Shown one piece after another: positions 24,001-27,000 of a DNA stretch of 46,150 nt (position 1 is the first letter of the stretch; each line of letters starts with the position of its first letter). A program made the position numbers. Origin of the DNA: Enterobacteria phage phi80. The DNA is taken from the sequence record NC_021190.1; one strand, given 5' to 3'.

Positions 24001-27000
24001 GCAACTAACGGCGCTCAAGTCAGCGGGTTGTGAGAAAATTTTTGAAGAGCATGCCAGCGGGAGGAAATCGAATCGGCCGGTTCTAAAACGGCTGATCGCC
24101 ACTATGCAGCCGGGGGATGAACTGGTGGTCTGGAAGCTGGACAGGATAGGCCGCAACGTTCTGCATGCGCTGTTGATGTTCCAGCAGTTACAGGAAAAGG
24201 GTATCAACTTCCGCAGTATTACAGATGGTGTAGACCTGAAAACAGCAAGTGGTCGCTATAATTTCCGTAATATTCTTTCTGCTGCGCAGTATGAATCTGA
24301 TTTGAATAGCGAGCGTACCTTAGCAGGGCTGGCCGTAGCCAGGGCAAAAGGGCGAGTTGGTGGTCGCAGGCCTAAGTTCACGGATGAGCAATGGCGGGAA
24401 ATGGGGGAGCGGATGGCAACCGGTGAATCACGACAAAGCGTATCAAAAACGTATGGAGTAGGGCTCTAAACTCTGTATAAAAAGTTTCCAGCTAGCTGAT
24501 AACGGGAAAGAAACAGAGAAGGGCACAAATATTGTGTACTTTAATGTGCCCTTTAATTTATTGATTGGTGGTTGAATTGTCCGTAACTTTTTGATTTAAG
24601 TGCAAATTTCTAATAAATTAGAACACTTTCTTAAATTGTCATTTGGCATATTACGAACAATTCCGCGTAAAAACGTTCTGTTACGCTAAACCCTTATCCA
24701 GCAGGCTTTCAAGGATGTAAACCATAACACTCTGCGAACTAGTGTTACATTGCGTGTAGCTTTGAGTGGGCAACTTTGTGTACACTTTTGTGTACCCAAA
24801 AACAAAAATGTGTACCCATTCAATGATCACCGACACAAAGCTCAGGAAGGCGCTCGGCAAGAAAAGAGATGATATCGAGATTATTTCTGATTCGCACGGG
24901 CTCAACGCCAGAATCAGCCAGGCCGGAAAAATATCATTTTTCTATCGGTATCGCTGGGCCGGTAAAGCGGTAAAACTCAATGTTGGTGATTATCCTGCAA
25001 TGAGTATCACCCAGGCAAGAGAGCGTCGCCAACAATTCAGAAACTGGTTAACTGAGGGACTGGATCCGCGAGAGCAGGTGAAGCTGGATAAGCAGACCCG
25101 ACAGGAAGCGATGTCCGTTGCCGAAGCGTTCAATTACTGGATTGAAAGGCACTGTATCGCTAACGGGCTAGTTAAAGTCGATTACTATCGCCAGGTGTTT
25201 GAGAAACATATCGCCGAACCGATGAAGAATGTCAAAGTCGATAACACAGCGAAAATGCACTGGATCAACGTCTTCGATTCTATAGAAAGCAGGGTGATGG
25301 CTCATTACATGCTTTCGCTGTGCAAACGGGCGTTTAGGTTCTGCGTTAACAGAAGTGTGATCGCCTCAAACCCACTCGAGGGATTACTGCCATCTGATGT
25401 CGGGCAAAAGCCTAAAAAGAGAACTCGCAGGATGGACGATGACGATCTGCGCAAAATCTATCAGTGGTTGAAAAGCCATATGTCGATAGAGTCCGTTTTC
25501 CTGGTGAAATTTATTATGCTTACCGGATGCCGTACGGCTGAGATTCGACTTAGTGAGAGATCATGGTTTCGATTGGATGATAATGAGTGGGTCGTGCCTG
25601 CGGGCAGTTATAAAACTCGGGTACATATTAGAAGGGGACTCTCAGACGCCGCCGTTAACCTGGTCAGAAATCACCTCAAGAAAATAAACACCAATCACCT
25701 GGTGACTTCACAACGTAAAATTGATGGCGGGATCAAAGATTCGCCCGTTCATTCACCTGTGGCATCCAATTACGCCCGTTCTATTTGGAATGGAACAGGT
25801 ATGGCAGAGTGGTCGCTTCATGATATGAGGCGGACGATAGCCACAAATCTCTCTGAGTTAGGTTGCCCGCCGCACGTAATTGAAAAGCTGCTCGGGCATC
25901 AGATGGTGGGGGTTATGGCGCATTACAACCTTCATGACTATATCGATGATCAGAAACACTGGCTCCGCGTTTGGCAGAGCCATCTTGAAGAGATCATCGG
26001 AGAGCCCTTCAGTTAATTTATCTTCTTTTTATCCTCCCACTCTTTGATTGACTCAGAGCGCCAGCGGTTAGGGTTGCCGGGCCAGTCAGGGGGTGGGAAC
26101 GGGCATACGAAGCCCCGAGGCATTGTGTCTGCACTTTGCCATGACCAAAGGGTTTTGCGTGAAATTTTGTAGCGACTGGTCAGGTCTGACGTTACCAAAA
26201 TATCATCCATAGCTCTCTCCAGTTGCCCGTTCGGGCCATTCAAAATCTTTTTCAACCAACCTGCCCGGGCAGGGAGCGGAGACGGCGCATGCCGGTCATC
26301 GCTGTGGCCACGTAGCTCGCCTTTCGGTTCACCACCTCCACCCAGACTTTCACGCCTTCAACCTTCACCGTATAAGTCTCTTTCATCTTGCTTCGCCCAT
26401 AGTCGCCATATGTTTGCAAGTGAGCTGCCAGCGCAACATCGCAAGCGCGGCGACCAATAGGTGATTGCTTACTGCGATTAATCAGCTTCATCATCACTGC
26501 ACTCCCAAAGTGGCTACGACATCACTCGCTGTTTCGCGGGTACTGCCTTTGCTGGATATAGCCCGGCGAGCACTGACGCGGTGCAGATTGAAGCCGTGCT
26601 GTTCGTAAAGTTCAATTACGCGCGGTGCGGTAGAATTGCTGATCACCACTTTTGCCCCCCGCTGGTGGGCTGCCACACAGCTTTCCGCAAGCTCTACCTG
26701 GCTATCCCATGAGAACCCACCAGCCGCGTAGTTAGTGAAACCAGCGGTGCCGGGAAGCGGCTCATAAGGCGGATCGCAGTAAACGACGTCACCATCACCT
26801 GCCAGCGCGAGCGTGCGCCTGAAGCCTGCATTCATGAATACGCATGCGTGAGCCTTCCGCTTAAATGCCTTGATCTCTTCTTCCGGGAAATATGGCGCTT
26901 TATATTTCCCAAAGCCGACGTTAAAAAAAACCGTCCAGGTTGTAACGAATCAGGCCGTTGAAGCAGTGCCGATTGAGGTAAAGGAATGCTGCTGCACGCT

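What the first reader, a model, noticed from the sequence alone, without database searches (positions are those of the whole stretch)
24500..26255. attP region with arm-type repeats; integrase convergent with excisionase-like gene
The AT-rich 320 bp upstream of int carries three direct TGTGTAC(A/C)C copies just before the int start and another about 250 bp upstream, the arrangement expected for integrase arm sites around a core. Unlike lambda, int is on the plus strand and converges on the AlpA-type xis candidate, with 3' ends overlapping by 4 nt. No tRNA-like 3' end is visible in the region, so the target is probably not a tRNA gene.
Basis: partly seen in the sequence, partly recalled or inferred. 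Interest (0 to 1): 0.4.

Follow-up and report, generated by a model that had tools for sequence, protein, structure and literature searches.

The report
Phage phi80 attachment site, integrase, excisionase

Summary
TGTGTACMC occurs three times in the window, all at 24777-24817 just before int (0.24 expected). A fourth TTGTGTAC lies at 24532. Int and xis converge, and their stop codons overlap by 4 nt.

The window is phage phi80. It differs at 1 of 1639 bases from GenBank X04051 (phi80 int-xis) and is identical to the phi80 prophage of DH10B.

Aligning attP with both prophage junctions and an empty site places the crossover core at 24620-24636 (AGAACACTTTCTTAAAT). That lies between the upstream copy and the three-copy cluster, not at the isochorismatase fragment. 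The target is the last five codons and stop of host gene yciI, which integration leaves intact. It is not a tRNA gene.

Int carries an N-terminal arm-DNA-binding domain plus a tyrosine-recombinase domain. The repeats are conserved islands in 21 diverged relatives, and the upstream copy is conserved in a Klebsiella phage whose arm is otherwise about 38% identical. They are therefore good arm-site candidates (about 0.7), but binding is untested here.

Xis is 65 aa (26013-26210), not the 80-aa ORF. It matches a phage excisionase family, but the "AlpA-type" label is not supported at sequence level.

Verdict: already known, low interest.

The parts
24500..24619 (+). int-distal arm of attP (called P arm by analogy with lambda). 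It runs from the stop of the full-length invertase ORF (24499 in relatives) to the core.
   Evidence: In lysogens this arm ends up joined to yciI (L006). The region is 36% G+C.
24532..24541 (+). Candidate arm-type Int site on the distal arm: TTGTGTACTT.
   Evidence: It shares the 8-mer TTGTGTAC with two int-proximal copies; all 3 genome copies of that 8-mer lie in attP. It sits in a conserved island (19/22 identical) in Klebsiella phage Kp4864-1, whose arm is otherwise 38% identical, and at the same 87-nt distance from the arm's end.
24545..24553 (+). Possible second, degenerate arm-type site: TGTGCCCTT, 12 bp after the first.
   Evidence: The 12-bp spacing matches that of int-proximal copies 1 and 2. 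It is conserved as TGTGTCCTT in Kp4864-1. It is also the 3' half of a 10-bp-stem hairpin spanning 24518-24554, so conservation could instead reflect a terminator.
24554..24566 (-). Exact match to the IHF consensus WATCAANNNNTTR (AATCAATAAATTA).
   Evidence: Binding was not tested here.
24584..24596 (-). Exact match to the IHF consensus (AATCAAAAAGTTA).
   Evidence: Binding was not tested here.
24620..24636 (+). att core AGAACACTTTCTTAAAT, the only stretch common to attP, attB and both prophage junctions.
   Evidence: Four-way alignment of the window, lysogen ECCRA-119 (L005, L006) and an empty site (L007). The same 17 bp are annotated as attP in mEp237 and HK225, and the last 6 bp as 'attP core' in X04051. 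Its reverse complement encodes the yciI C-terminus F-K-K-V-F plus the T of the stop codon.
24637..24642 (+). TGTCAT immediately right of the core; phage-specific and absent from attB.
   Evidence: Invariant in 22 distinct int-proximal arms. It could be part of a core-type Int site; that is inference.
24650..24689 (+). Conserved block in the int-proximal arm (TTACGAACAATTCCGCGTAAAAACGTTCTGTTACGCT...), role unknown. An accessory-protein site (Xis, IHF or Fis type) is a reasonable candidate.
   Evidence: 24/40 columns are invariant across 22 arms, against 4/51 in the adjacent spacer 24690-24740.
24741..24766 (+). Conserved block AGTGTTACATTGCGTGTAGCTTTGAG upstream of the repeats. It may be the -35/activator region of the int promoter. 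AGTGTTACA may be a degenerate extra copy of the repeat.
   Evidence: 18/26 columns invariant. It shares the 9-mer TTGCGTGTA with the CII box of the lambda pI promoter. This is a lead only.
24777..24785 (+). int-proximal repeat 1, TGTGTACAC.
24789..24797 (+). int-proximal repeat 2, TGTGTACCC (TGCGTACTC in most relatives).
24809..24817 (+). int-proximal repeat 3, TGTGTACCC; it ends 5 nt before the int ATG.
24823..26016 (+). int: a 397-aa tyrosine integrase with an N-terminal arm-DNA-binding domain.
   Evidence: PF13356 Arm-DNA-bind_3 (residues 2-87, E=1.4e-18) and PF00589 (residues 203-371, E=7.8e-17). PHROG 1 integrase. The RefSeq start in DH10B matches. A 1-bp indel between repeats 2 and 3 in relatives rules out the 416-aa GTG-24766 form.
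26013..26210 (-). xis: a 65-aa excisionase, convergent with int.
   Evidence: X04051 annotates it as 'xis-polypeptide (aa 1-65)'. PHROG 1553 excisionase, E=7e-34. The N-terminus MDDIL is conserved and upstream ORF sequence is not.
26217..26220 (-). GGAG ribosome-binding site of xis.
   Evidence: Annotated in X04051 at 1587-1590, which maps here.

Best explanation
This is the site-specific recombination module of temperate coliphage phi80: attP, int and xis.

Shown here:
- The window is phi80.
- The crossover core is the 17 bp at 24620-24636. The same 17 bp form the 3' end of the host gene yciI (the att80 site between kch and yciI).
- Integration places int and xis next to kch, and the invertase/tail end next to yciI.
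- The phage arm supplies a TAA in place of the host TGA, so YciI is unchanged.
- Int has both a catalytic tyrosine-recombinase domain and a P4-type N-terminal arm-binding domain.

Inferred:
- Int works as in lambda. Its catalytic domains act at the core while its N-terminal domains bind the TGTGTAC-type repeats. Three tandem copies lie 149-189 bp to the int side of the core centre; one or two lie 75-95 bp to the other side.
- IHF, at the two consensus sites between the distal copy and the core, would bend the DNA into an intasome.
- Xis is the last gene of the leftward early operon and would redirect the reaction towards excision.
- Int points away from that operon, so it must have its own promoter immediately upstream. 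The three int-proximal repeats overlap that promoter and leader.

Confidence by step: identity as phi80 and the core position, about 0.97; the repeats being Int arm-type sites, about 0.7.
For: Identity as phi80:
- 1 mismatch in 1639 bp to GenBank X04051, 'phi 80 int-xis region', which annotates the attP core, int and a convergent 65-aa xis.
- Identical over 4.68 kb to the phi80 prophage of DH10B.

Core and target:
- The four-way attP/attL/attR/attB alignment shows identity confined to 24620-24636.
- 119 of 5426 complete E. coli genomes carry the distal arm, and those listed (44 records) have it joined to yciI, except NCTC9040.
- The empty site overlaps the yciI stop codon, and the YciI protein is identical with and without the prophage.
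- The literature places att80 between kch and yciI (PMC11148124).

Int domains.

Repeats:
- Enrichment statistics.
- In 22 distinct int-proximal arms (Int 79-87% identical, plus the Klebsiella phage at 73% DNA identity), repeats 1-2 have 20/23 invariant columns and the stretch from repeat 3 to the ATG has 12/18. This compares with 0/8 and 4/51 in the flanking stretches.
- The distal copy lies in a 19/22-identical island within an arm that is otherwise 38% identical.

Other:
- IHF consensus matches.
- The lambda record shows the same logic of two arm sites, a core and a three-site cluster.
- Convergent int/xis is conserved in 11 relatives.
Against: - No binding or mutational data for the repeats were available to me. 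The primary papers (Leong et al. 1985 and 1986; Rotman et al. 2012) are not in the held library, so I cannot say whether these exact repeats were already assigned as arm sites.
- Conservation of the distal copy rests on one diverged relative. Part of that island doubles as a hairpin stem that could be a terminator.
- The three int-proximal copies lie 6-46 nt before the start codon, so their conservation could reflect promoter or leader function instead.
- All copies share one orientation, and there is no covariation to exploit because the motif barely changes among relatives.
Confidence: 0.8

Rival explanations
1. The three int-proximal repeats are mainly elements of the int promoter, leader or translation start (for example the -10 region and operator of an activator-dependent pI-type promoter) rather than arm-type recombination sites. 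The upstream copy would then be coincidental or part of a terminator hairpin.
For: The repeats end 5 nt before the ATG and are conserved right through to it. No sigma-70 consensus promoter is found upstream of int, which fits an activator-dependent promoter. The block just upstream shares TTGCGTGTA with the lambda pI CII box, and lambda pI has GATGTAC where phi80 has TGTGTAC. The distal copy lies in the loop of a hairpin with dG -14.4 kcal/mol.
Against: Int has an arm-binding domain, so arm sites must exist on both arms. TGTGTAC is the only motif repeated on both sides of the core. The loop sequence TGTGTACTT is conserved in Kp4864-1 although the surrounding arm is not, and a terminator stem does not explain that. 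The full lambda-type TTGC-N6-TTGC box is absent, and MAFFT finds no meaningful alignment to lambda pI. The two roles are not exclusive.
Confidence: 0.15
2. The functional attachment core lies at the isochorismatase (yecD) fragment at 23431-23753, and the region upstream of int is only a regulatory spacer.
For: The fragment is real host DNA. Its left edge coincides with the 21-bp att duplication of yecE-integrating Stx phages.
Against: In the lysogen aligned here (ECCRA-119) both junctions fall at 24620-24636, and every listed genome but NCTC9040 shows the arm joined at yciI, not at yecD/yecE. HK225 and mEpX1 lack the fragment yet keep the same attP and int.
Confidence: 0.01
3. The repeats are chance recurrences in AT-rich DNA with no function.
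For: The motif is short, and with two mismatches allowed it is not enriched genome-wide (87 found against 89 expected).
Against: There are 3 exact 9-mers where 0.24 are expected. All 3 copies of the 8-mer fall within 353 bp. The repeats are near-invariant across relatives while the neighbouring bases are scrambled.
Confidence: 0.02

Closest known systems
Phage phi80 attP-int-xis (GenBank X04051; att80 between kch and yciI)
   Same: The same sequence: 1 mismatch in 1639 bp. It has the same 17-bp core, the same convergent int and 65-aa xis with a 4-nt overlap, and the same chromosomal target.
   Different: Nothing of substance. The window additionally shows the distal arm, which X04051 does not cover.
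Phage lambda attP/int/xis
   Same: The same logic: a short core shared with attB, a heterobivalent tyrosine integrase, repeated arm sites on both arms (two plus a cluster of three in the lambda record), IHF consensus sites, and a small Xis.
   Different: In lambda, int and xis are co-oriented and overlap head-to-tail, attP lies at the 3' end of int, and the three-site cluster is about 85-125 bp from the core. In phi80, attP lies at the 5' end of int, xis converges on int, and the three-copy cluster is 149-189 bp from the core centre. The arm motif differs, and the arm-binding domain is the P4 type (PF13356). The target is the end of a protein gene rather than the gal-bio intergenic attB.
P4 / CP4-57-type integrases (Arm-DNA-bind_3 N-terminal domain)
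   Same: The same domain architecture, PF13356 plus PF00589. Their recombination directionality factors (Vis, AlpA) were aligned with phi80 Xis in PMC2603039.
   Different: From general knowledge, those elements usually target tRNA or tmRNA genes. Here no tRNA is involved and the target is yciI. Phi80 Xis does not score against the AlpA profile.
e14 and phage 21 (integration into the 3' end of icd)
   Same: The phage core duplicates the 3' end of a host protein gene, so the gene stays intact after insertion (PMC11148124 notes this for e14 and icd).
   Different: Only 17 bp (five codons plus one base of the stop) are duplicated here, and the host gene is different.

Membership tests
Phage phi80 integration module | Near-identity to the deposited phi80 int-xis sequence and to phi80 prophage DNA | tested here: met
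   99.94% to X04051 (1 mismatch in 1639). Identical to the DH10B phi80 prophage over 4.68 kb.
Phage phi80 integration module | Integration at att80 between kch and yciI | tested here: met
   Junctions in ECCRA-119 and the other listed lysogens. The literature agrees (PMC11148124).
Lambda-type attP (heterobivalent tyrosine integrase system) | A short core identical in attP and attB, flanked by unrelated arms | tested here: met
   A 17-bp identity at 24620-24636; the flanks diverge immediately on both sides.
Lambda-type attP (heterobivalent tyrosine integrase system) | Integrase with a tyrosine-recombinase catalytic domain | tested here: met
   PF00589, E=7.8e-17. The translation shows the usual ...TGCRTAEI..., HDMRRT, LGH and AHY motifs (read directly).
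Lambda-type attP (heterobivalent tyrosine integrase system) | A separate N-terminal arm-DNA-binding domain | tested here: met
   PF13356 Arm-DNA-bind_3, residues 2-87, E=1.4e-18.
Lambda-type attP (heterobivalent tyrosine integrase system) | A repeated arm-type motif on both arms, distinct from the core | tested here: met
   TGTGTAC-type copies at 24532 (and possibly 24545) on one side and at 24777, 24789 and 24809 on the other. They are enriched and phylogenetically footprinted.
Lambda-type attP (heterobivalent tyrosine integrase system) | Int actually binds the arm motifs, and IHF binds and bends the arms | not testable with these tools
   Only consensus matches for IHF. No binding data could be retrieved.
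AlpA family (Pfam PF05930) recombination directionality factors | Significant match to the family profile | tested here: not met
   No PF05930 hit even at E<=10, whereas E. coli AlpA scores 6.9e-24. hhalign against AlpA gives E=0.18 and probability 0.3. There is only a sub-threshold NCBIfam Xis_Gifsy_1 hit (18.8 bits against a cut-off of 60).
MerR-like / excisionase winged-helix fold | Strand-helix-helix-wing-helix topology resembling solved excisionases | tested here: inconclusive
   AF2 with a 6-sequence alignment gives pLDDT 83, but only 1 of 5 models is good. The top Foldseek PDB hits are nearly all of this class (BldC, RacA, CarH DNA-binding domain, gpNu1, RdfS, Tn916 Xis), yet E>=0.047 and TM is about 0.5.
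tRNA-targeting P4-like integrases | attP core matches the 3' end of a tRNA or tmRNA gene | tested here: not met
   No tRNA or tmRNA in the window. The core equals the end of the yciI coding sequence.

The most novel reading that the evidence does not exclude
The three int-proximal repeats may serve two purposes. As arm sites they help build the intasome. Because they cover the -10 region, the leader and the start codon of int, bound Int would also shut off its own synthesis. In addition, read-through of the leftward early transcript past xis would produce RNA antisense to all of int. Together these would give phi80 a control of integration versus excision that replaces lambda's pI/sib arrangement. 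I found no accessible evidence that this has been tested.
Probability: 0.3. Interest if true: 0.3.

Novelty: already known. Interest (0 to 1): 0.1.

Why it matters
It matters little for discovery. Phi80 attP, int and xis were sequenced in the 1980s, and attP-phi80 with its Int is (from my own knowledge) a routine single-copy integration tool in E. coli.

The useful output here is practical:
- an exact core position in this window;
- the corrected xis and int starts;
- a comparative map showing which parts of the 320-bp attP are constrained: the repeats, a 40-bp block next to the core, and TGTCAT abutting the core.

This map could guide trimming or re-targeting of the site. The finding also shows that the scan's first-stage reasoning (AT-rich gap, repeats and a neighbouring integrase together indicating attP) works.

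Tried and rejected
- Distal arms of the diverged relatives, to test the upstream copy more widely. BLAST of the arm against 80 IMG/VR loci and 6 genome loci found only near-identical E. coli copies. An exact search for the Citrobacter-type core returned only one junction per prophage contig plus many chance hits. A geometry pattern (TTGTGTAC, 65-95 nt, degenerate core) returned only phi80-type arms plus chance hits. E. coli lysogens are all at least 97.6% identical in this arm and so uninformative. Only Kp4864-1, whose record is cut at att, gave a diverged arm.
- Literature. Leong et al. 1985/1986, Rotman et al. 2012 and the CRIM-plasmid paper are not held. Full-text searches found no accessible description of phi80 arm sites.
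- A lambda-type CII box TTGC-N6-TTGC upstream of int is absent. A MAFFT alignment to lambda pI was not meaningful. Only a shared 9-mer remains, which by my rough estimate has about a 1% chance of occurring between two 60-nt stretches.
- Xis. The PDB sequence search found nothing. Single-sequence AF2 was useless at pLDDT 55. The large protein database holds only 8 close homologues, none with a Pfam domain.
- A sigma-70 promoter scan found nothing on the + strand upstream of int.
- I did not try to define the strand-exchange positions or the core-type Int sites. The core's variation among relatives simply follows the wobble positions of the host's yciI codons.
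Full report
**What is in the sequence**

The stretch 24470-24822 is 36% G+C, against 52% for the window.
- TGTGTACMC occurs three times in the whole window, all on the + strand: 24777, 24789 and 24809. Chance would give 0.24, and none of 100 shuffles reached three.
- The 7-mer TGTGTAC occurs six times in the window, four of them in this stretch. The 8-mer TTGTGTAC occurs three times, all here: 24532, 24776 and 24788.
- The long ORF on the + strand ends with TAA at 26014-26016. A minus-strand ORF ends at 26013-26015, so the two share TTAA.
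- ARAGORN finds no tRNA or tmRNA gene in the window.

One caveat: the upstream copy matches only 7-8 bases of the motif.

**What the window is**

- A 2.9-kb query around the finding is 99.1% identical to phage mEp237 over its full length.
- From 24631 onward it is 99.9% identical to GenBank X04051, "Lambdoid bacteriophage phi 80 int-xis region".
- Direct comparison shows one mismatch in 1639 bp to X04051, and identity over 4.68 kb to the phi80 prophage of E. coli DH10B.
- X04051 annotates a partial "attP core region" at its first six bases, an int polypeptide, and a 65-aa xis on the opposite strand overlapping int by four bases, with a ribosome-binding site.

The finding is thus the classical phi80 integration module.

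**Where the core is**

In E. coli lysogens the int side of the query matches from window position 24617 onward and lies next to kch. The other side matches up to 24639 and lies next to yciI.

I aligned four sequences: attP (the window), both junctions of strain ECCRA-119, and an unoccupied site. Identity common to all four is confined to 24620-24636, AGAACACTTTCTTAAAT, and the flanks diverge at once on both sides. The same 17 bp are annotated as attP in mEp237 and HK225.

On the minus strand the core reads ...TTT AAG AAA GTG TTC T. These are the last five codons of yciI and the first base of its stop codon.
- In the empty site the stop is TGA; in the lysogen the phage arm supplies TAA.
- The YciI protein is identical in both.
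- 119 of 5426 complete E. coli genomes carry this arm, and the listed ones show it joined to yciI, apart from NCTC9040, noted below.

It is not at the isochorismatase fragment.

**The proteins**

Int (24823-26016, 397 aa):
- It has an N-terminal Arm-DNA-bind_3 domain (PF13356, E=1.4e-18) and a Phage_integrase catalytic domain (PF00589, E=7.8e-17).
- RefSeq starts the gene at this ATG, and the Pfam match begins at residue 2.
- Relatives carry a 1-bp deletion between repeats 2 and 3, which breaks the frame of the 416-aa "longest form" starting at GTG 24766.

Xis:
- It is the 65-aa protein at 26013-26210. In 11 relatives conservation begins exactly at MDDIL, and the upstream part of the 80-aa ORF is not conserved.
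- It matches PHROG 1553, excisionase (E=7e-34).
- It does not match Pfam AlpA (PF05930), even at E<=10, although E. coli AlpA itself scores 6.9e-24.
- hhalign of a phi80-Xis alignment against AlpA is collinear but not significant (E=0.18). NCBIfam gives only a sub-threshold Gifsy-1 Xis hit.
- A published alignment groups phi80 Xis loosely with Gifsy-1 Xis, P4 Vis and AlpA (PMC2603039).
- The family is narrow: eight close homologues among 5.8 billion proteins.
- An AlphaFold model from six sequences reached pLDDT 83 in one of five models, with strand, two helices, a wing and a helix.
- Its best PDB matches are almost all MerR-like or excisionase winged-helix proteins (BldC, RacA, CarH DNA-binding domain, lambda gpNu1, RdfS, Tn916 Xis), but none is better than E=0.047.

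I therefore call it an excisionase that probably has that fold, and I do not file it in the AlpA family.

**Are the repeats arm-type sites?**

I could not retrieve binding data, so I used comparison.

*The int-proximal arm.* A scan of genome and viral collections gave relatives from Kluyvera, Citrobacter and metagenomic prophages (Int 79-87% identical), plus Klebsiella phage Kp4864-1, whose int region is 73% identical in DNA. Together with phi80 these give 22 distinct int-proximal arms. Conservation across them is sharply uneven:

| Segment | Coordinates | Invariant columns |
|---|---|---|
| TGTCAT abutting the core | 24637-24642 | all 6 |
| Conserved block | 24650-24689 | 24/40 |
| Variable spacer | 24690-24740 | 4/51 |
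| Conserved block | 24741-24766 | 18/26 |
| Bases just before the repeats | 24767-24774 | 0/8 |
| Repeats 1-2 | 24775-24797 | 20/23 |
| Repeat 3 to the ATG | 24808-24825 | 12/18 |

*The distal arm.* Only Kp4864-1 gave a diverged copy, because its record is cut at the att site. That arm is 38% identical to phi80 outside one island. The island is TGTGTACTTATATGTGTCCTTT against phi80's TGTGTACTTTAATGTGCCCTTT (24533-24554), 19/22 identical. It lies 87 nt from the end of the arm, the same distance as in phi80. The island suggests two sites 12 bp apart, the same spacing as proximal copies 1 and 2.

*IHF.* Two exact matches to the IHF consensus lie between this island and the core, at 24554-24566 and 24584-24596.

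*Comparison with lambda.* The lambda record annotates two Int sites on one arm, the core, and a cluster on the int side. The count and logic match. The geometry differs: in phi80 the cluster is 149-189 bp from the core centre, on the 5' side of int.

I rate the arm-site reading at about 0.7.

**The main rival**

The proximal copies may owe their conservation to promoter or leader function.
- They end 5 nt before the ATG, and no sigma-70 consensus promoter is found.
- The block just upstream shares TTGCGTGTA with the CII box of lambda pI.
- However, the full TTGC-N6-TTGC box is absent, and the regions do not otherwise align.
- The two roles are compatible. Int bound at these sites could repress its own gene.

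**Gene arrangement**

Int and xis converge in phi80 and in all 11 relatives examined, with a 4- or 8-nt overlap. Xis follows the DUF4060 gene, the Dam-methylase gene and the recombination genes on the minus strand. It is presumably the last gene of the leftward early operon. Int must then have its own promoter, and read-through past xis would be antisense to int. Both points are inference.

**Verdict**

What this analysis adds:
- exact coordinates for the core;
- the identity of the target, the 3' end of yciI, which is left intact;
- corrected gene starts for int and xis;
- a conservation map of the attachment site.

Novelty: already known. Interest: low.

Noticed in passing
window 23429-23753: The 'isochorismatase fragment' is a piece of the E. 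coli chromosome. Positions 23431-23753 match the yecD-yecE region of all 5426 E. coli genomes at about 95-97% identity. The left edge coincides with the 21-bp 'duplication due to insertion' of yecE-integrating Stx phages, next to a dinI-like gene exactly as in those prophages. It looks like a fossil right-hand junction plus adjacent host DNA, picked up from another lambdoid prophage by imprecise excision or recombination. mEp237 has it; HK225 and mEpX1 do not.
   Followed up: partly
window 24467-24469 (gene 23951-24469): The Pin/Hin-type DNA invertase carries a C-to-A change at 24468 that turns TCA into TAA. This removes the last 10 of 182 residues, inside the C-terminal helix-turn-helix. mEp237, HK225 and a natural lysogen have the intact codon.
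   Followed up: partly
window 24518-24554: The 10-bp inverted repeat GAAGGGCACA / TGTGCCCTTT forms a hairpin (dG -14.4 kcal/mol, z = -2.35) with the distal TGTGTAC copy in its 17-nt loop, followed by a T-rich run. It could be a terminator for the invertase gene overlapping the arm sites. The stem is kept, with a G-U pair, in Kp4864-1.
   Followed up: partly
window 24750-24758, and 35658-35671 (minus strand): TTGCGTGTA upstream of int is identical to the left half of the CII box of lambda pI (TTGCGTGTAATTGC). A similar TTGC-N6-TTTC sits on the minus strand at the start of the ORF after the cro-like gene, where a pRE-type promoter would be expected. This may be a phi80 CII recognition pattern, TTGC-N6-YTTY. 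It was not tested.
   Followed up: partly
window 25960-25982 (minus strand): A terminator-like hairpin (9 pairs, 6 of them G-C) lies about 30 nt downstream of the xis stop, inside the 3' end of int. It could terminate or process the leftward transcript before it runs antisense through int.
   Followed up: no
L008-L012, L072-L092, L261 (core region upstream of int): In relatives from Citrobacter, Kluyvera and Klebsiella the 17-bp core differs only at positions that are codon wobble sites of the host's yciI end. For example, Citrobacter's AAAATACTTTTTTGTAT encodes YKKVF plus the stop. The att core therefore tracks each host's yciI sequence.
   Followed up: partly
L013 (NZ_JACBXX010000235.1, Streptococcus danieliae assembly, 567-bp contig, coverage 1.3): A contig in a Streptococcus genome assembly encodes residues 124-311 of phi80 Int at 100% identity. 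This is almost certainly E. coli or phi80 laboratory contamination of that assembly. It fits phi80's reputation as a lab contaminant (PMC2885432, listed).
   Followed up: no
H74, NZ_LR134247.1 (E. coli NCTC9040): In this one genome the distal arm is annotated next to a type I restriction endonuclease R subunit instead of yciI, and the arm occurs at two places. It may be a rearranged or secondary-site prophage.
   Followed up: no
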